Shown piece after piece: positions 1-11,550 of a stretch of DNA of 64,000 nt. The notes below the pieces were generated by a model. The model was given only the letters and a program-made list of their open reading frames with translations, ran no database searches and was not told the DNA's origin. Numbering within the stretch: position 1 is the stretch's first letter; the number at the start of each line of letters is the position of its first letter. This DNA is from Trypanosoma brucei. Lineage: Eukaryota. Where the stretch lies: the NCBI GenBank assembly GCA_000002445.1, contig CP000066.1:1440001-1504000 (forward strand), read 5' to 3'. Position numbers and translations under genes: made by a program.

Positions 1-1182
1 CATATGCGCGACCCCCCTTTTTTTGTTATATGCAAATATTTTGAACCTCACGTACAAAGTGCTTGCTTCTTCTTTAGCTATTTTTTGTATATATTTTTTT
101 AAATCCATTAGGGGAAAAGGCATAAGAAAAGGGATATGAGGGAAGTTGGCTCATCATCAATACAAACACAAGGAGCAAGGCGAAACATTAAAGGGAGACT
201 TCTTCATGGCGGTTCAGTGGTTTCCGCCACTTTCTTTTTTTCTTTTTTAAGTTGCTGATGTTGTGCTTGCTGGTAGACATAACTTCTTTTTCATTTCCAC
301 CCACTCTTTACTTTATGGCAGCGCAGTTCAAGCAATCATTGGGTATCAAAGAGGGCAAATCTGGTGTAGGGGTTAAAAGAATTTAACTATGAAGGAGAAT
401 GTGTTTTCGGAGGGTCAGTAAAAGAAAGAAAAGGAAACTAAAGTTGAAGAGGGAGGTAAACATACGTCACGTAGCATAAAGTTGGTGTAACAATGAAGAT
501 TACTTGTTTCGTTGTGTTTTTTTTGCTTTTTCACGTACTGGTTCTCCATATGTTTTTCTTCATTATGTCTTGGCTGTGTTATTTATCAGGTGAAATTCCT
601 TCATTCTCATGGTTACGCACGCATATTTTTCCATGCCGCTTGTTTTCAGGGTTCCCCCTTTGGGGTTTGTTTGTTTGTTTTCTTGTTGTTCACTATTATC
701 GTCATACATTACATTACTTCATCTTTTCATCCACTTATTCTCTCTTTTCTTTTTATTCTTTTTATTTTTTTTAAAAAAAAACGCTCTTCTTCGGTTTAAG
801 CCGCCACAACAGCGCGCATTAACTTGGAGGCGTACGGTAACCGCATCCACAGGCCGATTTCATCATCTCTCAGGCGTTTGCATAAGGGGTGTTTGAAAGA
901 CAAGTGTTGGATACGGGGGAATTCGCTTCGTCAAGGGTGTGCTGTTGAGGGGCAAGTTTTGTTTTTTTTTTTTGCACAAAAAAAACAACAACAACAATAA
1001 AAAGGTATACATTTTCATTTCTGTGGAGGTCAAAGACTTGCATAGTGGACAAAGAAAAGGAACACACGTAGGGAGAGGTAAAGTGAAGTGAAGAGGGAGG
1101 AAGGGAACTGGAGCCCCCCCTAAAAAAAAAAAAAATAATAGGAAGTGTGTGTTGTCAGTTGAAAACATTGCTGACCTACAAA

Positions 1183-1246
1183 GTTCCCATATTCTTTTTT
1201 TTGTTCTTGAGGAGTTTTATTGTTTATTGTTTTGTTCTGCTTGCAG
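1183..1246 (+). promoter_or_regulatory. Polypyrimidine tract plus AG dinucleotide: putative trans-splice acceptor for the downstream exonuclease gene
   Basis: A T/C-rich run (ttcccatattcttttttttgttcttg...tgttttgttctgcttgcag) ends in AG at 1245-1246, 13 nt before the first ATG at 1259. This is the standard kinetoplastid polyY-AG layout. Confidence 0.5.
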
Positions 1247-1258
1247 ACTGGATTGGAA

Positions 1259-3547
1259 ATGGATTTGAAGGAGAACCGTAGAAGTTGCACGTTTCATGGT
1301 GAGCCAACAGACACGGGTGACGGAAATGCCTATTCCGATACGCAGTGCTGCAGCACTTCATCATGCATAGATAACGTGCAGTATATTGGTTCTAAAGCAA
1401 GTGGTGTGGAACCAACCTTTGGTGATGGGTTAAAGTTACACGACACAACACACTCAGGGCGTGAGGGTCATCGCTTTCAATCCAATAGAGCTCCCGCTAT
1501 TTCTAACCAGGAAAAGTGCCGTACGGTAAGGTTCATTGCTGCGCAGTGGCTTTCGTTGTTGATGAACGAGTCACCCAACGTGGCGATACCGCCTTCTCTC
1601 CGAGGTCGTAGGAACCAAACGCGTCGCCGTCGCCGTCAACAACAACAACATCAGCAGCAGGTCACCAGGCGGGATGAGGAGTTATCCGGACCTGATGGGA
1701 GGGACAATGTGATGGCGGAGGAGGTCGATAGTGATGAGAGTTACTCGCAAAAGAGGATTCTTCCTATTGGCGTCACCAAAAAAGGTGCATCACCAACCCT
1801 CACTGGAAATGACAACAGGCAAGTGGAGGAACCCCGCACCATGACTGGGAATGATACGCCCACATCTTCGTTTGAGTTAGTGCCACGGGAAGAAACACTC
1901 CCGCAGCTTATGGCCGTGTTGAGGGAAGTTGCCCTGGCGGGTGCTTCTTTATCTGATCTCTCGCCAGTAGGAGATGAGGGGGAGATGAGTACTTCACAAT
2001 CGGTAAGCGAGAAAGCGGAGGCGAGTGTGGCTGATGTAGTTACAGGTTCGAGTAACAGTGGTTGCACACCCGCACAAACCCAAGACGAATTGTTATGGAA
2101 GGATATTCGTAAGCAGTTGAACCAAGTGTGTAAACTGGTTCACAATCGCAGCGAGCTAGCGGCAGAACTAAACAGCACCCTCGGTAACGACTGGTATTTG
2201 AGTGATGATGAACTTCGCAAGGATGAAACGCCCCTCAAGGATTATTGTTTCCAGCTTCCTCCACCACAGGTAAGTTGCGTTGACACCCACTCAGCCGCTG
2301 CTGCATCATCTGAGAGGGAGGCTTCAGAACCAATGGAACAACAGCAGCAATTTCAAAAGCAGGAGTGCACCGATCGTACCCGCACTGTGGCTGTCGCCTC
2401 TGCCGGGTCTCGATTAAATCGGGACGCACCTCCGTTTCACTCCCGGTTGTACGTGCCAACACACCTTAGTTCTTCCTCTACAATTTGGGCGGATGCGCCT
2501 GTTTACTATCCGGGGGGTACATCATCACCCGGTAAACAGAAAGAATTGTCTTCACCTTCAGTTGCACATCAGCGTCCTTCTTTCACACAGACTGCGGAAA
2601 GCAGTTCCTTAGGTGGTGCGTCGGTTGGTTCACCCACGGTGCCTCTCACCACCTCTGCAGGGGCATCAGCAGCGTCAAATGTGGGCTCCTCCACAACTTC
2701 GCCGAGCATAACGTTTAATTTAGAGTCGCGTGAAGGTATGATTCGCAGGAGGACGGCTGCAGCAGCAGCAGCGGCTGTGGCCGCAAATCATTATGTTCAC
2801 AACTCGGGAGGTAATTTTTATAGCGGTGGTCGTTCCCGGGGTGGTTGGGGTAACTCCCATTCACCGGTGGTGACTTATATGAACTGTGCACTGTCCCTCT
2901 CGCAGTGTCCTTTTGACTATTTACTTGTTGTAGATTTTGAGGCGACGTGTGAAGAATACGCGCCACCATCGTACTTACACGAAATAATTGAGTTTCCTGT
3001 GGTTGTGGTTGACGCCAAGCTGCAGCGCGTCATAACGGAGTTTCACCGCTACGTGAAACCTAAGGTGAAACCGCAGCTGAGTGAATTCTGCCGCCAACTT
3101 ACCGGCATCCGGCAGGAGGACATTGATAGCGCCGCTCCACTGGAAGATGTAATCAAGCAATTTGAACGCTGGTACGCGCAAACGATACCACCGGGTAGCC
3201 GTACCGTATTAGTAACAGACGGACCTGCGGACCTTCGTGAATTTATGTACGTGCATAGTGTGACACGGCAAGGGATCCGCTTCCCCAGCATGTTTTACCA
3301 GTGGATTGATGTGAAGCAGGTCTTTGCCCACTTTTTCCAGTGTCAGCAGGGGAAAATAAAGGCCATGCTGGAGGTCCTTCAGTGTCCTTTTGAGGGGCGA
3401 CTCCACAGTGGCATCGACGACGCGAGAAATATTGCAAAAATTGTTATTCGAATGCTGGAGGTTGGGTGCTCTTTTTGCGAGATTCCGCTTTGCCGGCTTC
3501 CATATGGTACCACAACCACTGCTGCTGCAGGCCCAGCTCAGGAATGA
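1259..3547 (+). CDS. ERI-1/3'hExo-family DEDDh 3'-5' exonuclease with a long low-complexity N-terminal extension
   Basis: A 2.3-kb ORF. The track start at 1220 is TTG; the first ATG is 1259 (MDLKEN...). The C-terminal domain (nt ~2921-3480) carries the DEDDh motifs LLVVDFEATC (Exo I), HEIIEFPVV, LVTDGPADL (Exo II) and LHSGIDDARNIAKI (Exo III, H-x4-D). From memory it is collinear with human ERI1/3'hExo (DFEATCEE, HEIIEFPVV, LTGI, TDGxWD, HxGLDDSxNIARI). The N-terminal ~560 aa are S/T/Q/R-rich and disordered. Confidence 0.8.
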   Translation: MDLKENRRSCTFHGEPTDTGDGNAYSDTQCCSTSSCIDNVQYIGSKASGVEPTFGDGLKLHDTTHSGREGHRFQSNRAPAISNQEKCRTVRFIAAQWLSLLMNESPNVAIPPSLRGRRNQTRRRRRQQQQHQQQVTRRDEELSGPDGRDNVMAEEVDSDESYSQKRILPIGVTKKGASPTLTGNDNRQVEEPRTMTGNDTPTSSFELVPREETLPQLMAVLREVALAGASLSDLSPVGDEGEMSTSQSVSEKAEASVADVVTGSSNSGCTPAQTQDELLWKDIRKQLNQVCKLVHNRSELAAELNSTLGNDWYLSDDELRKDETPLKDYCFQLPPPQVSCVDTHSAAAASSEREASEPMEQQQQFQKQECTDRTRTVAVASAGSRLNRDAPPFHSRLYVPTHLSSSSTIWADAPVYYPGGTSSPGKQKELSSPSVAHQRPSFTQTAESSSLGGASVGSPTVPLTTSAGASAASNVGSSTTSPSITFNLESREGMIRRRTAAAAAAAVAANHYVHNSGGNFYSGGRSRGGWGNSHSPVVTYMNCALSLSQCPFDYLLVVDFEATCEEYAPPSYLHEIIEFPVVVVDAKLQRVITEFHRYVKPKVKPQLSEFCRQLTGIRQEDIDSAAPLEDVIKQFERWYAQTIPPGSRTVLVTDGPADLREFMYVHSVTRQGIRFPSMFYQWIDVKQVFAHFFQCQQGKIKAMLEVLQCPFEGRLHSGIDDARNIAKIVIRMLEVGCSFCEIPLCRLPYGTTTTAAAGPAQE

Positions 3548-5888
3548 GAAATGGATGCTGCCAACACTCTGCTGTGCGTACCCGCGGTGCTGATGTTGCT
3601 TAGTATTGTTTACAGTTCTTCTTTTGGCTGAGGAGCAGCTCCGTGTGGAGTAACGATGCCTCTGTGTGGGTGCGTTTGTGTATGTATGTGTGGGAGGTGA
3701 AATATGAGAGAAGGAATTGGAATTGACAACCAAGAGCAAAGGAAGGAAAAAGGGAATATACATAAATAAATAAATATATATATATATATATACAGTGAAA
3801 TTTTACCACAGTGAGCTTGTGAGGGAGGAGAGGGAGGAGGACGTGAGACGGAATGGAACGGAGGGATTCAAAAAAAAAAACGAAGAGATATTTGGGGGGG
3901 GGTGGGGGAGAGGAGGGGTTTACAAAACAGAAACAGTTACAATATTTTGGTTGGGTTGGAGTTGCTGTTGTGTTTTTCTAGAGGATGAGGGGATGGAGCG
4001 GGTTGCCAGTGGTGAAATGTGCGCTTGGGGAGTGCGCAGAAGACAATGACAGCGCGGCGAGTGAAAATCGACGTGAAGAGTTGCGAAGGCAAGTACGAGT
4101 TAGAACGAGTCGAAGATATTTCTTTGTTGGGGTAAGTTTATTACCGCTTTTACAATTAGTAAGGCTTCAATATGTATGTGCCCTTTCTCTTTTATCTCAT
4201 TTACTTCCAGATCCCCCATGTGGTAACACTAGTTTTTTTTTCCACGTGAGCGTGGTGTTGAAGTGGTGATGTTATTTCGTTTGAAATGTCGACTTAAGGA
4301 GAGGAAGGGAGGGAAGGGGGGGGGGGAAAAAATAAGGAAAGAAAAAGGAAAAACAATTGCAGTTGTGTAGGCCGGAGCGCACCTGGATTCCGCCTATCAA
4401 TTTATTTCACCGTTTATCTGAGTGTCATATATGGTTAAGTGATCATGCTATACGACCTATATTTGAATGAGTATAAATAAGTATAAATATATATTTATAT
4501 ATTTATATATTTTTGTGTTTTTTTGTTTTTTTGTTTTTTTGTCAAATCAACTAGTTTGGCGAAGGAGCCCAGTTTTTATGTGCATGAGTTATGTACATGT
4601 GTGTGAGCTTGGTGCCAGAGAAGACAAACTTCAGCACCTTCCTATGTTTTTTGAAAGAAAAAAAATTCTTCTTATTCTGCTGTTTTGTTTTACTGCGCTT
4701 GCCACTCATATATTTATATTTATATACGCACATTTTTTTTTGTTTCCTTCTCACTCGTGACGGTTAGTGTTTTTTCATCCAAATACGGGTACGTGTGTGT
4801 TTGTGTTTGTGTATATTTGCACGGGAGGAAGGAGGGAAAAGAGGTAAGTGCAACACTGATGATTGTGTGAAGTTTCTTCTTCATGTCAAAGTATATTTGC
4901 GCTTCTTTCTCTTTTTTTTTTTTATGTTCCCCCTTATTCTCCTTTTTGTTCTTTTTGTTCTTTTATTTCCCCCTCTTTCTTTTGATTCTTATTTTTCCCT
5001 TCTTTCTTCACTCGTTTCGAAAAAAAAAACTGAGAAAATCCAACGGTTGGTGGTGATGGTTGTTGTTGTTGTTGTTGTTGTTTTTATTGTTGGTGTTGTT
5101 GTTGTTTTTATTGTTGGTGATATCTGTGATGCCGTAAGAAGTTTGCTTTTTCATTACCGTTGTTTTTACTGTACCCCTTTCCCTCATGAAAGGAGAGAAA
5201 GGATCTATTTCCTTGTGTGTTAATTCGTTACTTTTTTTCTCCCATTTTTTTTTTCCCATCGTCTTTTCTCAATTTCCTCGACCCCTCCTTTCTTTTGTTT
5301 TACCCTCCGTTTGTGTGTGTTTTTATTCTTGATTTTTTCTTGCTCCCCGTTTGCTTGTTACCGGCTTCAGCCGCATGCGCAATACTTTTTTTTTCTTTTA
5401 GTTGTATTGATGAGGAAATGAAGTGGATGAATGGTTCAGAAAGGAAAATAACAGAGCAGCCGTATTCGGTCGCAGTGTTTCGTACTGGCCATTGAAGATA
5501 TCCTTTCATTGAATTTCTGCTTTCTGTCCGGCCTGTTGCTTTTACACACCACCCGTAGATTGCTGTTGCTCGCTAATCCTCTTGTAAATATCATTTGCTT
5601 CGCGTTATCTCTTCTCTTCTTTTTTTTTTCTCCCCCTCTTAATTACCTTCGTTACACTTATTTGTTCTGAAAAATATACGACTCTATGTGTACAATACAG
5701 TTGTGTTCCCGTAACGTGATTCAGGGAGTGAAGGAAGTGAAGTATAGATATCACCCCCTCCCCAATTTCTTCCCTAAAGGAAGCATACAGCAACAACAAC
5801 AACATCCAAAAAGAGAGGCGTGTAAAGAAGCTGTGGGTATTATTAAGAGGAAAGGCGACGCCGTGCAAAGCGAAACTACGCCATACTT

Positions 5889-6878
5889 ATGGTTTCTTGC
5901 AAGGCAATACCGGAAAGAGCCAGTGCCAGCAGTAACGGCGTGCAACCTCAAGCGTTTCATACTGACAAATGTTATGACGCTGGAGATATAACTTGCAAGA
6001 AGATGACTAAGAATGAAGGCGATGGAGGTCTATCACAAAGAAAGAATAAACCGCGTGGTCGTCCGCAACCTTTTTCACATTTACTTGTGTGTGACTTCGA
6101 GGCGACGTGTGACGCTGATAGTGCCGGACTGTACCCACACGAGATCATTGAGTTTCCGGTAGTGTGCATTGACACCGCACAACTTGCTGTTGTAGCTGAG
6201 TTTCACTCTTATGTTCACCCAGTGCGCCGTCCGAAACTCACCGCTTTTTGTAAGGAGCTGACTGGCATCACCCAATCGGTAGTTGATGACGCACCAACTC
6301 TGCCGGAGGTGATTCAAAAATTTGGTCAATGGGTTCGTGAAGTGGTGTATCCTCTTTGTAAAATGTGGAAACAACAGTATCCTCCTTCTCAGCTGGCAAG
6401 CAACTGTCTGGGTGATTTGGGAAAAAAATTCAAATATGACGAGAAAGACAATAAAGAGTGGGTGGGTTGCGAACGCATGGTTTGCTTCGCCACCGACGGT
6501 CCGTGGGATATGCGTAAATTCATGCATGAATGCAGCGTGGTCCGCGATGGCCACATTTTTCCGCCGCTTTTCTACCGCTGGGTGGACGTGCGTAAGTGCT
6601 TCAAACAACACTTCAACAAGTGGCCGCGGAAACTGGTCGACATGTTGCGGACGTTGCGTCTCGATTTCGAGGGCAAACAACACAGTGGAATTGACGACTC
6701 CCGAAACATTGCGCGTATCCTCATCGAGTTGATGCGCCGCGGTTTCTTTGTGAAACGCGTTAGTACGATCGAATACAAATGTCCAATGGATGTTGGTGGA
6801 GTGATCCTTACACAAGAAATGCGGGAACTCTGTGATGAGGAAAATGCAAAAGCAAAGCAACGACACCTTCGCGAGTAA
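5889..6878 (+). CDS. ERI-1/3'hExo-family DEDDh 3'-5' exonuclease, compact paralog of the upstream gene
   Basis: ATG at 5889. The exonuclease domain (nt ~6081-6760) contains LLVCDFEATCDAD, HEIIEFPVVCID, FCKELTGITQ, CFATDGPWDMRKFM and QHSGIDDSRNIARILIELM, so all DEDDh catalytic residues are present. It is about 45-50% identical to the upstream gene's domain, with a ~40-aa insertion between Exo I and Exo II. Confidence 0.85.
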   Translation: MVSCKAIPERASASSNGVQPQAFHTDKCYDAGDITCKKMTKNEGDGGLSQRKNKPRGRPQPFSHLLVCDFEATCDADSAGLYPHEIIEFPVVCIDTAQLAVVAEFHSYVHPVRRPKLTAFCKELTGITQSVVDDAPTLPEVIQKFGQWVREVVYPLCKMWKQQYPPSQLASNCLGDLGKKFKYDEKDNKEWVGCERMVCFATDGPWDMRKFMHECSVVRDGHIFPPLFYRWVDVRKCFKQHFNKWPRKLVDMLRTLRLDFEGKQHSGIDDSRNIARILIELMRRGFFVKRVSTIEYKCPMDVGGVILTQEMRELCDEENAKAKQRHLRE

Positions 6879-7851
6879 CGTGAAAAGAAGGGGAAGACAC
6901 GGGGAAATGCATGAGATTGACCCTTCAGAAACAACAGACAGCAACAGATGACAACAGATGAAGGCGCCGGCAGCGAATGCAACGATCCCTACTCGTGCGT
7001 TACTGTGGCGTAGGGGCTGGCGGGGGTAGGGTTCCTAACATTGGGTATTTGTTAATTGTGTTCAGATATCACTGGTTTTCTTTTTTGTTTACACCAGAAC
7101 CTTTTGCTGTTCATCATCGTTACAGTTCATTCGTTTCAGTTGCAAGTTACTCCAAACGGATAATAATAACAATTTTTCTTTTTGATGAACGTTTATGACT
7201 GTGTTACACGTCTTCCTTCCTCTTTGATTGCATGTTTAGTACAATTACCTCACCTTTTTTGCGTTCGCTCGGTAACTACCGGGTGGGTGAGGAACGTAGC
7301 AAGGCATTGTGTCAACATACATTAGAGAGGCGCAAAGAAAACTCATCGTCCCAAGGTGACGATTGCAGAAGAGGTACAAAGAAAACAGAAAAGAAAAGGC
7401 TTACTCACGCGGGCGCACACACAGAGAAAGAGAGAGGGAAAGGGTGAAAGAGTGAAAGGAACATAACAAAAGAGGAATCAAGATAAAGGTAGGTAACGGT
7501 AGATAGAAAAAAAAACAACAACATCAGAACCCCATATATCACTGGACTGAGGTGTACAGTGACCCATATATAGAAACGAGCGTAAAAAGGTACTTCAGTA
7601 ACGAAGAAGCTAGTGTGCGCAGTGAATATTGTTTGTATTTTTATTTTTAATCCTTTTCTTTTAGTCCGTACAACCCCACGTACCAGCCCGTGGGGGAGGA
7701 TCTTATTATTATCTTCTTTTTTTTAAAAAAAAAAAGAATATCGCCATATTGTTCCCATAGAATCTGTAACTTTCTCACGTATTATTGAAGCACCAACGCA
7801 AGAGAGGACGACAACTCAGACTGACTCACCAGCCAACTTGTCATCGCAATA

Positions 7852-10800
7852 ATGAGTGACCGTCCCCGACCACCTTTTGGCGTGAAGCTTTCGTTTGGGA
7901 AAGTCGTGCAGGGGCTCGGGTCGGACGGGCGCAGCGCCTTCTTGACACCTCGGGATGTGTCAGCGACTCCCGATTCTAATGTGACGAGGGGTTCAGCGGA
8001 AGCAACTGGGAGAGAACAACAACTAGACACAACTTCAGAACTGCAAAGGAGTTTTCAGTACCTCACCCCTCGCCAACAGCAGAGCATTCTTTCTTTTTGC
8101 AGGCCTTTTACTCCCTCCATGTCGGTTCCCCGTGGAGAGCTTCATTCGTCTATTGGCTCCCGTTCCACTTCACCGGTGGTGGTGCGACCGACCAAAGATC
8201 TGCCCCCAACAAAGGATGCCGTAGATGCCCCTCGGATGCCACCAACAGCGGTGAAAAGGGAAGAAAGTGTATTTCATGACGGAGACGGGCAAACTCCAGT
8301 GACTTCTGTACATTCGAGTGTCGTGGCCACCCAATCAGCGTCTGAGGCCGTAAAGCTCAGACCCCCTAAAATTCCCGCTTCTTCTCCTTCCCCTTCCCCC
8401 TCCCCAAAAGCTGCTGTTGCTAATGCATCCGCAACCAGTGCCACGACTACCACCGCGGGACTTGCCACTACTGCGACTGGTGCGGATGTAAGTGCTGAAG
8501 CGGCTGGAAGCGATGCCGCACCGCAGGGTACTGTGTACAATGTCTGTTCACTCTGTGGCCTCACCGTGCTACTTGGCGGGAGCTTTGCAGAGCAGCAGCA
8601 ACAGTGGCAGGACCACATTAATTCTTGGATGCATCAACGTTGCTTGAAGATGCACGCAAATGCGCGTAACGAGAACGTGTACATTGGTGACACCACAACC
8701 GTTTCTATAGGCTCGCCCGTGTCACCTTCGATGTTGAAGGCATTGGAAGAATTTTCATCATCCATTGCTTCATCGGATGCGGGGCAGTCTGCGGGACGGG
8801 CCATCCGATTGTCCCCTGCTCCCTTGAAGTTGCCAGTTTCGGATGATGTGGTCACGGCGCGAGAACTAGAAGCCAGGCGAATCACTTTCTCGTCAGAGGA
8901 CATCACGCCACGCATTCTTGCTGATAGCAGTGAGCACCTATCGCTTGTTGAGAAGAAACTCTTTACTTCCGTTAAGAAGCCACATGTATCAGGTGATGAT
9001 GCTGAGGTTGTTGGCATACTGACAGACGAAAGGGAGGCAGCCACCGCTGGTAAAGCGACGTGCGAGGGAGGGGCACCGCCAATATGCCAGAAGCGAAAGT
9101 TGTTGAAATCAGTCAAAGAATCCGGAGAAACACCGATTCGAGGAGGGTTCCGGAAGTTTGATGTCAATGCTGACCAAGTAAACACGTCGAGCGGTGCTGA
9201 GATGGACGATGCTGGTCAGAGTAATAGCAGCAAGCGGCACTTAAAGCGGAGGCTAGATAAATACTTGGTTGTCAAAGAAAGGCGACTGTTACTTGCTTGC
9301 ATGCGTCACTGGTTTAACAGTATGTTTGTGCGCGTAACGGACAATTTTTTCTCCGTTCGATCGCGTTCAAGCAAGGAGACACCCGATGCTATGGTGGCAG
9401 CATCTCCTACAGTGAGGTGCAGTCGAACGGATACGCCATTGGATGCGTATGTTCCTGGTGTTGGGCAACAAAAGGCGTCACCGGTGGTACGTAAGGGATC
9501 CAAGAAGCAACCGGAGCTTGTTGCTGTGGAGGCTGCTGCTGGCGGTGGTGATAATGAGAAGGGAGAGTTGTTGTTTATGGCTTCACGTGTAAAAGATTTT
9601 GCGCACATCAAGAAGGACTCTTCCGCGGATAGTTTAGAGATGGAAGTGGGGAAGACGGACGTAAAGTGGTATGTCTCTCGCCCCGCAGGGAATTCGCGGA
9701 AGCGGGGGAAAGTCTCATCCTGTAAACATAAAAAAGATGACTCATCCACCCCGTCACTTGAAGACGACAGTAGCATTGAGGAGCTGCTCTCCTCACTAGC
9801 ACCTCCACTGCAGGAACGTGTGCGAATGGCAATCCGTGGGAAGCCCGTAAGCAAGTCGAAGTTTCCCATGACATCCGAGGTTATTAGCATGATGCGGGAT
9901 TCTGTGCAGCAAGAGGTACAACAGTATAGGGATCAACAGTTGTTTCACCAGTTCCAACACCAACAGCAGCAGCAGCAACATCAGCACCACGAGCAGTACC
10001 ATGACAACTACCAGCACCATCCTGTGGCATCCCGTTCCTCCCCAGATGCTGTGGGGATCCCGCAGCAACCGTTTCTTGAACGTCGGGAGTTTGGCACTAA
10101 TACCAAGGAGCTCGTGAACGAGTCGCTACGCATTAGGGAAGGTGAGGTGGGATCTACCAGTTTCAGAAGGGAGCAAGCCATAGATACCTCCGTACCATAT
10201 GGTTACCTTTCACAAATTTTATCAGAAGAGACCCCCATGAGGACTACCGGCTTAACAGAGGGTGTTGTACCCAACAAAGAAGACGAAAGGGGCGGGAAAA
10301 TACTCGCGAACGCGATGGAAGAAGCCAGCGGGGTTGTGGGACGACAGCTACCCCGTCCGTTTCTACTAGTGGAGGGGCGTAGACAACTGAGTGGCGGATC
10401 ATCAGGGAGTTCAGAATGCGGGTCCGCCATCGAAGAAAGGGGCGACGAAGCACCGCGTCCGCGTTCCAACGGCTCCCCAGATGATTGTATGCGGTATTTG
10501 AATGCTGAAGCGAGTTTTAGCGGAAGTCGGGGCAACTCCCGAGACCGAAAGCACCGGCGAAGACGGTCGCGCGCCGTGGAGGCTGCTGAATCGGAAATTC
10601 GCGAACCGAGGCAAATTTCTCAATCGCATATAACGAATCATGCACGTAGAGGAGCGAGCCGCAAGGGGAGGCAACCCCTTTCCATATCCTCGATTCACTC
10701 CACTTTGCGCGCAGGAGGTAATAGCGAACGTCCAACTTCCCCACAAACAACGCCACGAGTACGAGGGACCTCCGGTTCCAGGGCCTCCTTTACTGTTCGA

Positions 10801-11550
10801 AAGGGGTCTATGGAAGAATGGGATACCTCAAGCTGTACGTTTAGAGGCGTACCAGGCGAGTATTACTGTTATGATGGTGAAGCCTACCAGCATGTGGAAG
10901 ACCCTACAGCCGGTGCATTATGTGATAAGTTAGGTCGGCGGCTCCCGCTGTATTTTGTACGCCGCTGTTCAAGCCCTTCGATGTCCCCTACACGGTTCAG
11001 TTGCATGCCAGTGACGAGGTCTCGTAGTCCCCTCGGACCTGGACGTTTGAACCCGTACTGTAGTGTTTGTGTTGAGCGCTACAACATTGTTATGGTTGAC
11101 GAAAACATGCGGGTCCTCTCCCCTGTAGTTAACAGAAGAGGAGGTGGGACCGGTAACTGCGCCTGCACATTTGCAAACAGGGGAAACTCGGCCAGCGGGC
11201 GCGGCAGGGGGAAGCGAAGATGTTCATCGGCGTCAAACACATTTTCCCCTCACAGAGGAATAAGTCCTGGTGGTTGCGTTGAGACGACTGATATCGGCAA
11301 ACGGAAACGAGGGTCCATCGCCCTACCTACAGGGAAACATCACCGTATTGTGGACCTTGAGGCTCTCTCCAGTGAGCAGGTTTGGCTTCTGCAGCAGGAG
11401 CGTCGTGTTCGCTCAATGATAAAGGCACTGTTACGACATGAGTTTCCTGTTAATGAGAAGTGCCGTCAGTGGGTAGCTTACCTCAACTCGTTGAATGACG
11501 CCGCGGAAGCGCTGAAGACGCTGCAAGTTGTGGACCTGACGGACAAATAA
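7852..11550 (+). CDS. Large hypothetical protein (1,232 aa), mostly low-complexity/disordered, with an H/Q-rich tract
   Basis: An uninterrupted 3.7-kb ORF starting at ATG 7852. It has S/P/A/T-rich stretches, an H/Q tract (HQFQHQQQQQQHQHHEQYHDNYQHH) and basic clusters (RKHRRRRSR). I recognise no enzymatic motif. Confidence 0.7.
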   Translation: MSDRPRPPFGVKLSFGKVVQGLGSDGRSAFLTPRDVSATPDSNVTRGSAEATGREQQLDTTSELQRSFQYLTPRQQQSILSFCRPFTPSMSVPRGELHSSIGSRSTSPVVVRPTKDLPPTKDAVDAPRMPPTAVKREESVFHDGDGQTPVTSVHSSVVATQSASEAVKLRPPKIPASSPSPSPSPKAAVANASATSATTTTAGLATTATGADVSAEAAGSDAAPQGTVYNVCSLCGLTVLLGGSFAEQQQQWQDHINSWMHQRCLKMHANARNENVYIGDTTTVSIGSPVSPSMLKALEEFSSSIASSDAGQSAGRAIRLSPAPLKLPVSDDVVTARELEARRITFSSEDITPRILADSSEHLSLVEKKLFTSVKKPHVSGDDAEVVGILTDEREAATAGKATCEGGAPPICQKRKLLKSVKESGETPIRGGFRKFDVNADQVNTSSGAEMDDAGQSNSSKRHLKRRLDKYLVVKERRLLLACMRHWFNSMFVRVTDNFFSVRSRSSKETPDAMVAASPTVRCSRTDTPLDAYVPGVGQQKASPVVRKGSKKQPELVAVEAAAGGGDNEKGELLFMASRVKDFAHIKKDSSADSLEMEVGKTDVKWYVSRPAGNSRKRGKVSSCKHKKDDSSTPSLEDDSSIEELLSSLAPPLQERVRMAIRGKPVSKSKFPMTSEVISMMRDSVQQEVQQYRDQQLFHQFQHQQQQQQHQHHEQYHDNYQHHPVASRSSPDAVGIPQQPFLERREFGTNTKELVNESLRIREGEVGSTSFRREQAIDTSVPYGYLSQILSEETPMRTTGLTEGVVPNKEDERGGKILANAMEEASGVVGRQLPRPFLLVEGRRQLSGGSSGSSECGSAIEERGDEAPRPRSNGSPDDCMRYLNAEASFSGSRGNSRDRKHRRRRSRAVEAAESEIREPRQISQSHITNHARRGASRKGRQPLSISSIHSTLRAGGNSERPTSPQTTPRVRGTSGSRASFTVRKGSMEEWDTSSCTFRGVPGEYYCYDGEAYQHVEDPTAGALCDKLGRRLPLYFVRRCSSPSMSPTRFSCMPVTRSRSPLGPGRLNPYCSVCVERYNIVMVDENMRVLSPVVNRRGGGTGNCACTFANRGNSASGRGRGKRRCSSASNTFSPHRGISPGGCVETTDIGKRKRGSIALPTGKHHRIVDLEALSSEQVWLLQQERRVRSMIKALLRHEFPVNEKCRQWVAYLNSLNDAAEALKTLQVVDLTDK

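What the first reader, a model, noticed from the sequence alone, without database searches (positions are those of the whole stretch)
1259..6878. Tandem, strongly diverged ERI-1/3'hExo-family exonuclease paralogs, one with a ~560-aa disordered N-terminal arm
Two adjacent genes (1259-3547 and 5889-6878) both encode complete DEDDh domains with every catalytic residue present (DFEATC; TDGPxD; HSGIDD(A/S)RNIA). From memory, both align along their whole length with metazoan ERI1/3'hExo. They share only about half of their residues, so the duplication is old and both copies have been kept. The upstream copy has acquired a long S/T/Q/R-rich extension, and the downstream copy has a 40-aa insertion between Exo I and Exo II. 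In other eukaryotes ERI-1 trims the 5.8S rRNA 3' end, degrades histone mRNA and antagonises siRNA accumulation. If the host is RNAi-competent (T. brucei is), a sub-functionalised pair is an attractive candidate for small-RNA turnover versus rRNA processing. Whether this pair is already characterised is something I cannot determine from sequence.
Basis: partly seen in the sequence, partly recalled or inferred. Interest (0 to 1): 0.55.

Follow-up and report, generated by a model that had tools for sequence, protein, structure and literature searches.

The report
Trypanosome ERI1-like exonuclease gene array
These are two real, intact ERI1-type RNA-trimming enzyme genes of Trypanosoma brucei, but they belong to an ancient three-gene array already noted in the literature and kept even by relatives that lack RNA interference, so the proposed RNAi link is not supported.

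Summary
Window 1259-3547 and 5889-6878 encode complete DEDDh exonuclease domains whose best matches are ERI1, ERI3 and ERI2. The window is T. brucei TREU927 chromosome 3 (1,440,001-1,504,000). The genes are Tb927.3.5140 (762 aa) and Tb927.3.5150 (329 aa). They are not a pair: a third paralog, TbLrRP1 (Tb927.3.5130), ends about 0.5 kb upstream of the window. A December 2025 NAR paper on TbLrRP1 already names both genes as ERI1-like paralogs conserved in kinetoplastids, without characterising them. The three-gene array, with all catalytic residues intact, is syntenic in RNAi-negative T. cruzi, T. rangeli and L. donovani. The known RNAi exonuclease, RIF4, is a different gene. New here: the long arm of 5140 is trypanosomatid-specific and mostly disordered, but it has conserved helical islands and a PAM2-like LNxxAxPF motif, and published TurboID data place the protein near PABP1. 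Published data show 5150 is cytoplasmic and binds total RNA in vitro. Most likely these are housekeeping 3'-end trimming nucleases that diverged through their targeting modules. Interest is modest.

The parts
1..1258 (+). Intergenic region between the out-of-window third paralog TbLrRP1 (Tb927.3.5130) and ORF1. TbLrRP1 ends about 500 bp upstream of window position 1.
   Evidence: Window position 1 aligns to L001 position 4140, and the A gene ends at L001 3640. No Rfam family in window 1-8000.
1259..3547 (+). ORF1 = Tb927.3.5140, 762 aa, the 'B' paralog: a long N-terminal arm followed by a C-terminal ERI1-type DEDDh nuclease domain.
   Evidence: ORF. (exact match to XP_844104.1, T. b. brucei TREU927). 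(TriTrypDB coordinates 1441259-1443547)..
1259..2893 (+). N-terminal arm of ORF1 (aa 1-545): trypanosomatid-specific, mostly low-confidence or disordered, with no Pfam domain.
   Evidence: Exhaustive phmmer against 1.84 billion representatives found only 8 proteins, all 746-1139 aa, matching over the B-type arm; one has the same length as Phytomonas B. No Pfam hit even at E<=10. AF2 gives 404 residues with pLDDT<50.
1514..1567 (+). Arm island 1 (aa 86-103), E.CR.AR..A..WLS.LM, predicted helix.
   Evidence: Alignment A1. AF2 helix 83-103, pLDDT 93-94.
1868..1954 (+). Arm island 2 (aa 204-232), ELVP.....P.L...LRE.AL...S, with invariant L207, P209, L217, L221 and S230.
   Evidence: AF2 helix 214-226, pLDDT about 94.
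2087..2221 (+). Arm island 3 (aa 277-321), E..W......LV.N..EL...L...G..W, a three-helix segment.
   Evidence: invariant W280, L293, V294, L300, L304, W312. AF2 helices 275-293, 297-308 and 316-321, pLDDT 87-96.
2411..2449 (+). Arm island 4 (aa 385-397), RLNRDAPPFHSRL: a PAM2-like short linear motif (L-N-x-x-A-x-P-F) and candidate docking site for the PABP MLLE domain.
   Evidence: A390 invariant, L386 and F393 at >=90%. L[NS]xxAxx[FY] is present in 10 of 11 B orthologs, with a relocated second copy in Leishmaniinae. The strict ELM PAM2 regex is not met at this island in any ortholog. The protein is PABP1-proximal by TurboID.
2711..2782 (+). Arm island 5 (aa 485-508), TF.LESRE.M[IL]RRR.AA followed by an Ala run; predicted helix.
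   Evidence: Invariant F486, L488, E489, R491, E492, M494, R496-R498 and A501. AF2 helix 491-508, pLDDT about 75.
2894..3496 (+). ORF1 nuclease domain (aa 546-746), DEDDh = D559, E561, D654, H716, D721.
   Evidence: Identity is 81% to T. cruzi, 72% to L. donovani and 42% to zebrafish ERI1.
3548..5888 (+). Intergenic region between ORF1 and ORF2: low GC, pyrimidine-rich on the + strand, with no RNA family detected.
   Evidence: Composition: GC 0.34-0.45 and AT skew down to -0.41. Rfam negative. No remnant of a longer C-type N-terminus.
5889..6878 (+). ORF2 = Tb927.3.5150 ('p33'), 329 aa, the 'C' paralog: short disordered N-terminus, ERI-type nuclease domain with a clade-specific insertion, and a C-terminal helical extension.
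   Evidence: (coordinates 1445889-1446878).. AF2 model pLDDT 79, pTM 0.74. Foldseek target-normalised TM-score: ERI3 0.89, ERI1 0.87, ERI2 0.85.
6054..6773 (+). ORF2 nuclease domain (aa 56-295), DEDDh = D69, E71, D203, H265, D270.
6339..6464 (+). C-clade insertion between Exo I and Exo II (aa 151-192), anchored by VYPLC[KR].W and [KR]F.YDE. It is modelled as an extension of a long helix plus short helices.
   Evidence: ERI1 residues 98-101 correspond to ORF2 151-192. The insertion is present across trypanosomatid and most bodonid C orthologs and absent from A, B and ERI1. AF2 helices 138-163, 171-180 and 189-196, pLDDT 65-81.

Best explanation
The region holds two of three ancient tandem paralogs of an ERI1-family DEDDh 3'-to-5' exonuclease on T. 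brucei chromosome 3: Tb927.3.5140 ('B', ORF1) and Tb927.3.5150 ('C', ORF2). The third, TbLrRP1/Tb927.3.5130 ('A'), lies just upstream of the window. All three keep the full two-metal-ion catalytic set and an ERI-type fold, so each most likely removes a few unpaired nucleotides from RNA 3' ends, as ERI1 does (inferred from family membership, not shown). They have diverged in the parts that decide where the enzyme sits, not in the active site. A has a C-terminal membrane anchor and works at the ER and nuclear envelope on large-subunit rRNA fragments (published). B has a 545-aa, trypanosomatid-only arm that is mostly disordered but carries conserved helical modules and a PAM2-like LNxxAxPF motif. 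I infer that the arm tethers the nuclease to PABP1-containing cytoplasmic mRNPs, where it acts on mRNA or mRNP-associated RNA 3' ends. C is a soluble cytoplasmic enzyme with a clade-specific helical insertion and a C-terminal extension. I infer that it trims abundant structured RNA, most plausibly rRNA or other stable RNA 3' ends. The array is a housekeeping feature of kinetoplastids and is not tied to RNAi.
For: Family and active site. Third paralog and window identity. Ancient origin: three clades (A bootstrap 100%; trypanosomatid B 88%; C plus T. borreli and environmental sequences 97%), with Neobodo sequences joining the extended B (94%) and C (90%) clades. Synteny with intact DEDDh in T. 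cruzi, T. rangeli, L. donovani and Phytomonas. B domain highly conserved (81% T. brucei-T. cruzi, 72% T. brucei-L. donovani). The arm is lineage-specific, with conserved islands that AF2 predicts as confident helices. The PAM2-like motif is retained or relocated in 10 of 11 orthologs. In TurboID, Tb927.3.5140 is absent from the wild-type and GFP controls, SigA for PABP1 (-logP 3.08, log2 difference 3.83) and SigB for PABP2 (PMC9791439 Table S2a). For C: TrypTag shows cytoplasm with both tags and the nuclear enrichment score is negative (PMC11649696 Table S1; PMC5519215); it bound total RNA on 3 of 3 protein-array slides and poly(A)+ RNA on 1 of 3 (PMC4055773 Table S7). Only A has a TM segment. 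The published function of A is in PMC12702573.
Against: No enzymatic activity or substrate has been shown for B or C. PABP1 TurboID labelled 178 SigA proteins, so proximity is not a specific interaction, and B's intensities are low (2-3e7). B is not reported in the PABP affinity captures. The motif fails the strict ELM PAM2 pattern at two positions. For paralog A, the catalytic residues were dispensable for its known function, so an intact DEDDh set does not guarantee that catalysis is the relevant activity. C was also recovered on TTAGGG-repeat and abasic-site DNA baits, so a DNA substrate is not excluded. RNAi of C gave no reported growth defect in bloodstream forms, and its depletion was not among the seven validated at protein level.
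Confidence: 0.6

Rival explanations
1. One reading: a sub-functionalised ERI-1 pair in which one copy handles siRNA or small-RNA turnover (antagonising RNAi) and the other handles 5.8S rRNA processing.
For: ERI1-family membership is real. In other eukaryotes a single ERI1 does both jobs (established knowledge, restated in PMC12702573). T. brucei is RNAi-competent.
Against: Both copies, and the third, are syntenic with intact active sites in RNAi-negative T. cruzi, T. rangeli and L. donovani. The duplications predate the trypanosomatids, and so predate the lineage-specific RNAi losses. A published screen for RNAi-restricted genes did not return them, and the RNAi exonuclease is RIF4, Tb927.10.8880. 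Neither has a SAP domain.
Confidence: 0.08
2. B and/or C are the catalytic 3'-trimming enzymes of the trypanosome-specific LSU rRNA fragmentation pathway. They would act redundantly with or downstream of the TbLrRP1-TbLrRP2 complex, which would explain why catalytically dead TbLrRP1 still complements.
For: They are close paralogs (44-49% domain identity) encoded next to TbLrRP1. TbLrRP1's DEDDh motifs are dispensable. C binds total RNA in vitro and is cytoplasmic, like the late LrRP1 step. ERI1 trims 5.8S rRNA in other eukaryotes.
Against: TbLrRP1 co-IP enriched only four proteins, none of them B or C. B is PABP-proximal, which points to mRNPs. No rRNA phenotype has been reported for either.
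Confidence: 0.2
3. C (Tb927.3.5150) is a DNA-directed exonuclease working at telomeres or in base-excision repair.
For: It was enriched on TTAGGG-repeat DNA (listed as a putative telomere-associated protein in PMC8311970, and PMC11649696 Table S1) and on abasic-site DNA baits (PMC10220248 Table 1). Some ERI-family relatives (CRN-4, ERI2) act on DNA.
Against: TrypTag shows cytoplasm with both N- and C-terminal tags, and nuclear enrichment scores are -1.93 and -1.29. It was not found in the TRF co-IP overlap set. It is not among the knockdowns with a growth defect, and no VSG derepression is reported for it. Pull-downs with free DNA ends readily capture 3'-end-binding nucleases.
Confidence: 0.07
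4. One of the array members is SNIP, the DEDDh exonuclease reported in 2004 to polish the 3' ends of SL RNA, U2/U4 snRNAs and 5S rRNA in T. brucei.
For: SNIP is described as a non-exosomal 3'-5' exonuclease with an ExoIII/epsilon-like domain (my recollection of the abstract; it is cited in PMC9841430). Its small-RNA 3'-trimming phenotype is ERI-like.
Against: The gene ID could not be obtained. No source name in the protein clusters mentions SNIP. The 2025 TbLrRP1 paper does not mention SNIP. As I recall it, SNIP has a 'central' 158-aa domain, which does not fit B. C is cytoplasmic, whereas snRNA and SL RNA polishing is expected to be nuclear.
Confidence: 0.05

Closest known systems
Metazoan/fungal ERI1 (3'hExo, THEX1; C. 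elegans ERI-1; S. pombe Eri1)
   Same: DEDDh nuclease domain of the same subfamily: 39-42% identity to zebrafish ERI1, phmmer E 1e-37 to 1e-42 to the human ERI1 structures, and target-normalised TM-score 0.87. All five catalytic residues are present.
   Different: No SAP domain. The kinetoplastid sequences form their own three clades rather than 1:1 orthologs. B carries a 545-aa lineage-specific arm, and C carries a roughly 40-aa insertion and a C-terminal extension. The phyletic pattern gives no link to RNAi.
Human ERI3 (PRNPIP) and ERI2
   Same: ERI-family nuclease domains that also lack a SAP domain. ERI3 is the best structural match for the C model (target-normalised TM-score 0.89) and is as good as ERI1 by sequence for C (E 1.2e-36).
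   Different: The flanking regions are unrelated. The NJ tree does not place B or C with the ERI3 representative.
TbLrRP1 (Tb927.3.5130), T. brucei LSU rRNA processing factor
   Same: It is the immediate upstream tandem paralog, with 48-49% domain identity, the same DEDDh set, and the same conservation across trypanosomatids.
   Different: TbLrRP1 has a C-terminal transmembrane anchor (KD19 3.2) that B and C lack (maxima 1.24 and 1.50). It pairs with the NERD protein TbLrRP2 and does not need its catalytic residues. B and C were not in its co-IP.
TbRIF4 (Tb927.10.8880), the RNAi-pathway DnaQ/DEDDh exonuclease of T. brucei
   Same: It is a DEDDh 3'-5' exonuclease with a C-terminal nuclease domain, and it acts on small RNAs.
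   Different: It is a different gene on chromosome 10 (490 aa; D294/D392/H472/D477). It is present only in RNAi-positive trypanosomatids, whereas B and C are present in RNAi-negative ones.
PAM2-motif proteins that dock on the PABP MLLE domain (PAN3, Tob, ataxin-2/PBP1, eRF3)
   Same: B has a conserved L-N-x-x-A-x-P-F island with the four core PAM2 positions at the right spacing, set in a disordered region, and it is PABP1-proximal in vivo.
   Different: The motif fails the ELM LIG_PAM2_1 pattern at positions 5 and 12. Direct binding is untested. In known systems the PAM2 sits on an adaptor (PAN3, Tob) rather than on the nuclease polypeptide itself.

Membership tests
ERI1 family (DEDDh, RNase_T/Exonuc_X-T superfamily) | RNase_T-type domain with all five DEDDh catalytic residues in Exo I, II and III | tested here: met
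   Pfam PF00929 at 88.6 and 91.6 bits. DEDHD is present in both proteins and in all orthologs.
ERI1 family (DEDDh, RNase_T/Exonuc_X-T superfamily) | Closest similarity to the ERI1/ERI2/ERI3/CRN-4 group rather than PARN, oligoribonuclease, RNase T, TREX or Pol III epsilon | tested here: met
   Top PDB sequence hits are all ERI1, ERI3, ERI2 and CRN-4, and the next hits are at E>=4e-6. For the C model, Foldseek gives ERI3, ERI1 and ERI2 at E 1e-17 to 6e-20, against RNase T, TREX and epsilon at about 1e-7.
ERI1 proper (3'hExo/ERI-1 orthologs) | N-terminal SAP domain that positions stem-loop or duplex RNA | tested here: not met
   No PF02037 hit in either full protein or in the N-terminal regions at E<=10. 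Metazoan and chytrid ERI1 hits do carry PF02037.
ERI1 proper (3'hExo/ERI-1 orthologs) | One-to-one orthology with opisthokont ERI1 | tested here: inconclusive
   In the NJ tree the kinetoplastid A, B and C clades lie apart from metazoan and fungal ERI1, but the deep nodes have low support (30-69%).
ERI1 proper (3'hExo/ERI-1 orthologs) | Function: 5.8S rRNA 3' trimming, histone mRNA decay, siRNA antagonism | not testable with these tools
   No functional data for 5140 or 5150 were found in the held literature.
Trypanosomatid RNAi machinery (AGO1, DCL1, DCL2, RIF4, RIF5) | Gene present in RNAi-positive and absent from RNAi-negative trypanosomatids | tested here: not met
   Syntenic, intact B and C copies are present in T. 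cruzi (L002, L003), T. rangeli (L008) and L. donovani (L004, L005). The criterion and the five-gene result are in PMC3359990.
TbLrRP1-type membrane-anchored rRNA processing factor | C-terminal transmembrane domain | tested here: not met
   The maximum Kyte-Doolittle 19-residue mean is 1.24 for B and 1.50 for C, against 3.23 for TbLrRP1.
PAM2-motif PABP ligands | Match to the PAM2 consensus (ELM LIG_PAM2_1) | tested here: not met
   No regex match at the conserved island in any B ortholog. The core L[NS]xxAxx[FY] is present in 10 of 11.
PAM2-motif PABP ligands | Physical association with PABP | tested here: inconclusive
   Published TurboID gives SigA for PABP1 and SigB for PABP2, with zero signal in the controls. 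The protein is not reported in the affinity capture, and direct MLLE binding is untested.

The most novel reading that the evidence does not exclude
Tb927.3.5140 is a PABP-docked ERI-type exonuclease. Its trypanosomatid-specific arm, through the PAM2-like LNxxAxPF motif and conserved helical modules, would place a DEDDh nuclease directly on PABP1-bound mRNA 3' ends. This would be a kinetoplastid-specific route for trimming or remodelling mRNA tails (for example removing non-A or oligo-U additions, or initiating decay), distinct from CAF1-NOT, PAN2-PAN3 and PARN.
Probability: 0.2. Interest if true: 0.6.

Novelty: already known. Interest (0 to 1): 0.3.

Why it matters
Trypanosomes control gene expression almost entirely after transcription, so every cytoplasmic RNA 3'-end nuclease is a potential regulator. 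This analysis removes an attractive but unsupported RNAi hypothesis for these two genes. It places them in a three-member array whose first member has just been tied to the unusual fragmentation of trypanosome large-subunit rRNA. That gives two testable leads: that 5140 is tethered to PABP1 mRNPs through its arm, and that 5140 or 5150 supplies the exonuclease activity that the catalytically dispensable TbLrRP1 does not. Neither lead is established. As it stands, the finding concerns annotated, already-noted paralogs of unknown function.

Tried and rejected
(1) Is either ORF RIF4? No. RIF4 is Tb927.10.8880, 490 aa, with different catalytic residue positions. The RIF4 sequence itself was not retrievable for alignment.

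(2) A full-length ORF1 word-index search returned only two hits because low-complexity words saturated the candidate list. The domain-only search missed the trypanosomatid B orthologs altogether. Orthologs were obtained instead by synteny and by the exhaustive phmmer search.

(3) SNIP identity: the 2004 paper is not held under its PMC id or PubMed id, and no held paper gives its gene ID. This stays unresolved.

(4) The TrypTag paper's held supplements do not contain the gene IDs. The localisation of 5150 came second-hand from PMC11649696 Table S1. No localisation was found for 5140 apart from membership of a compiled flagellar-proteome list, which I do not weigh.

(5) Telomere role for 5150: rejected as the main function on localisation and knockdown data.

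(6) I searched for a frameshifted longer N-terminus of ORF2 and found none.

(7) Rfam scan of window 1-8000 found nothing.

It was redone with A3.

(9) Erben 2014 supplements: the hits for 5150 turned out to be the protein-array RNA-binding data, not a tethering result. Neither gene appears in the held tethering tables.

Full report
**1. Observation**

Each has one Pfam RNase_T domain far above threshold (E 8.4e-25 and 1.1e-25).

Against all PDB sequences, the best matches for both are human ERI1/3'hExo (1w0h; E 1.6e-42 and 8.9e-37). ERI3, ERI2 and C. elegans CRN-4 follow. Nothing from PARN, oligoribonuclease, RNase T or TREX comes near.

An AlphaFold2 model of ORF2 (pLDDT 79, pTM 0.74) matches ERI3, ERI1 and ERI2 crystal structures at target-normalised TM-scores of 0.85-0.89. 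RNase T, TREX and Pol III epsilon are ten or more orders of magnitude weaker in E-value.

The DEDDh residues are intact. The two domains are 40% identical including a 39-residue gap and about 44-48% without it.

**2. Identity of the locus**

ORF1 is an exact match to XP_844104.1 of T. b. brucei TREU927.

FASTA headers in a published proteomics table give TriTrypDB coordinates Tb927_03_v5.1:1441259-1443547(+) for Tb927.3.5140 and 1445889-1446878(+) for Tb927.3.5150. The window is therefore chromosome 3, 1,440,001-1,504,000.

The matching T. equiperdum contig (L001, 99% identical) shows a third RNase_T gene of 378 aa that ends about 500 bp upstream of window position 1. This gene is Tb927.3.5130. 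So the 'pair' is two-thirds of a triple array.

**3. What is already published**

A December 2025 NAR paper (PMC12702573) characterises Tb927.3.5130 as TbLrRP1:
- It is a DEDDh protein with a C-terminal membrane anchor at the ER and nuclear envelope.
- It is required, together with the NERD protein TbLrRP2, for excision of the trypanosome-specific spacers of LSU rRNA.
- A version with all three exonuclease motifs mutated still complements.

**4. Test of the RNAi idea**

| Species (locus) | RNAi status | Gene order (lengths in aa) |
|---|---|---|
| T. cruzi (L002, L003) | negative | Ank - 394/379 - 793 - 379 - 1139 - 428 - cofilin |
| T. rangeli (L008) | negative | same order: 380, 794, 398 |
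| L. donovani (L004, L005) | negative | Ank - 405 - 880 - 502 |
| Phytomonas EM1 (L006) | not assessed | Ank - 392 - 1020 - 404 |

Every copy keeps D-E-D-H-D.

A neighbour-joining tree (198 columns, 200 bootstraps) gives three clades:
- A: bootstrap 100%.
- B: trypanosomatids 88%; with environmental sequences and Neobodo P0115, 94%.
- C: with Trypanoplasma borreli and environmental sequences 97%; adding Neobodo P0038, 90%.

The duplications therefore predate the trypanosomatids, and so predate the RNAi losses within them.

The published screen for genes confined to RNAi-positive species returned only AGO1, DCL1, DCL2, RIF4 and RIF5. The RNAi exonuclease RIF4 is Tb927.10.8880.

A moonlighting effect on siRNAs cannot be ruled out from sequence, but nothing supports it.

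**5. Anatomy of ORF1 (B)**

An exhaustive phmmer search with aa 1-545 against 1.84 billion representatives found eight proteins. All are 746-1139 aa and match over the B-type arm; one has the same length as Phytomonas B. So the arm is trypanosomatid-specific. It has no Pfam domain, SAP included, even at E<=10.

The arm is not featureless. An alignment of 11 orthologs shows these islands:

| Island (aa) | Pattern |
|---|---|
| 86-103 | E.CR.AR..A..WLS.LM |
| 204-232 | ELVP…LRE.AL |
| 277-321 | W…LV.N..EL…G..W |
| 385-397 | LN..A.PFHSR |
| 485-508 | F.LESRE.M[IL]RRR.AA |
| 528-536 | G…SP |

AlphaFold2 (16-sequence alignment; overall pLDDT 61) predicts helices at 83-103, 214-226 and 275-321 with block pLDDT of about 84-96, and at 491-508 with about 75. 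A total of 404 residues fall below pLDDT 50.

The 385-397 island has the four core PAM2 positions (L, N, A, F) at the correct spacing, but it fails the strict ELM pattern at two positions. An L[NS]xxAxx[FY] motif is present in 10 of 11 orthologs. In the Leishmaniinae a second copy (PLSEAAxPYQP) appears about 100 residues downstream of a degenerate first one, which is the turnover typical of short linear motifs.

Independently, a published TurboID experiment found Tb927.3.5140 absent from the wild-type and GFP controls. It was significant at FDR 0.01 for PABP1 (log2 difference 3.83) and at FDR 0.05 for PABP2 (PMC9791439 Table S2a). That list is long (178 class A proteins for PABP1) and the intensities for this protein are low, so this is proximity, not proof of binding.

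The B nuclease domain is the most conserved of the three: 81% T. brucei-T. cruzi and 72% T. brucei-L. donovani.

**6. Anatomy of ORF2 (C)**
- The insertion is a C-clade trait anchored by VYPLC[KR].W and [KR]F.YDE. It is modelled as an extension of helix 138-163 plus short helices.
- A C-terminal VSTI.Y segment, an acidic stretch and a basic tail are also conserved.
- T. brucei lacks the N-terminal GSRFD[IV]L motif found in most orthologs, and no frameshifted remnant lies upstream.

Published data on the protein ('p33'):
- TrypTag shows cytoplasm with both tags, and the nuclear enrichment score is -1.93 (PMC11649696 Table S1). It is -1.29 in the original table.
- It is not among the nine knockdowns with a growth defect in bloodstream forms, and no VSG derepression is reported for it.
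- It was recovered on TTAGGG-repeat DNA and abasic-site DNA baits.
- On a protein array it bound total RNA on 3 of 3 slides but poly(A)+ RNA on 1 of 3 (PMC4055773 Table S7).
- It was not significant in the PABP TurboID.

I read the DNA pull-downs as 3'-end binding by a nuclease in lysate rather than as a telomere function.

**7. Most likely mechanism**

*Shown:* three ancient, syntenic ERI-type DEDDh paralogs with intact active sites, which differ in their appended modules. A has a membrane anchor, B has the arm, and C has the insertion and tail.

*Published:* A acts in LSU rRNA processing at the ER and nuclear envelope. C is cytoplasmic and binds RNA in vitro. B is PABP1-proximal.

*Inferred:*
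- Each enzyme trims short single-stranded 3' extensions by the two-metal DEDDh mechanism.
- The paralogs sub-functionalised by location rather than by chemistry.
- B is tethered to PABP1 mRNPs through its arm.
- C works on abundant stable RNA.

The main rival is that B and/or C provide the exonuclease activity in the TbLrRP1 pathway. That would explain why catalytically dead TbLrRP1 complements, but neither protein was in the TbLrRP1 co-IP.

Whether any member is the older 'SNIP' exonuclease could not be checked.

**8. Novelty and verdict**

The genes are annotated ('exonuclease, putative'). Their paralogy, ERI1 resemblance and conservation are published. The RNAi hypothesis fails its own test.

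What this analysis adds:
- the synteny and phylogeny evidence;
- the conserved architecture of the arm, with a PAM2-like motif that matches an overlooked TurboID hit;
- a consolidated picture of 5150 as a cytoplasmic RNA-binding nuclease.

I rate the finding as already known, with modest residual interest (0.3). The most novel surviving reading, a PABP-docked ERI nuclease acting on mRNA 3' ends, has perhaps a 20% chance of being right.

Noticed in passing
L001:2504-3640 (about 500 bp upstream of window position 1): A third tandem ERI1-like gene, TbLrRP1/Tb927.3.5130 (378 aa, with a C-terminal TM anchor), sits immediately upstream of the window.
   Followed up: yes
L007:1275-6245 (Leishmania lindenbergi, Viannia): No LrRP1-like A copy is detectable in the 6 kb upstream of the B gene. 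tblastn with L. donovani A hits only B and C, and a 2OG-Fe(II) oxygenase gene occupies the corresponding position. This could be a rearrangement or relocation in this Viannia assembly.
   Followed up: partly
window 5889-6050 (ORF2 N-terminus): The T. brucei C copy lacks the N-terminal GSRFD[IV]L motif conserved in T. congolense, T. cruzi, T. rangeli, Leishmania and Phytomonas orthologs. No frameshifted remnant lies upstream. The NCBI TREU927 model starts at M39 (291 aa), whereas TriTrypDB has 329 aa.
   Followed up: partly
P0030, P0032 (EukProt proteins): These proteins carry two ERI-type domains in tandem within one polypeptide. The second domain of P0030 has lost the catalytic residues (AHDRN in place of DEDHD).
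   Followed up: no
L004:6172-8814 and L007:6245-8887 (Leishmania B orthologs), P0235: Leishmaniinae B proteins have a second PAM2-like motif, PLSEAA[AV]PYQP, about 100 residues downstream of the ancestral LNxxAxPF island. That ancestral island is degenerate in L. donovani.
   Followed up: partly
window 7852-11550 (+): A 1232-aa ORF with no Pfam hit on record for the called gene lies immediately downstream. Syntenic orthologs are present in T. cruzi (1139 aa) and T. rangeli (1170 aa). It is followed by a 413-aa ORF and a cofilin/ADF gene.
   Followed up: no
window 4500-5500: The ORF1-ORF2 intergenic region has low GC (0.34-0.38) and a strong negative AT skew (-0.40 to -0.41), meaning T-rich on the coding strand. 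This is consistent with the pyrimidine tracts used for trans-splicing and polyadenylation. No Rfam family was found.
   Followed up: partly
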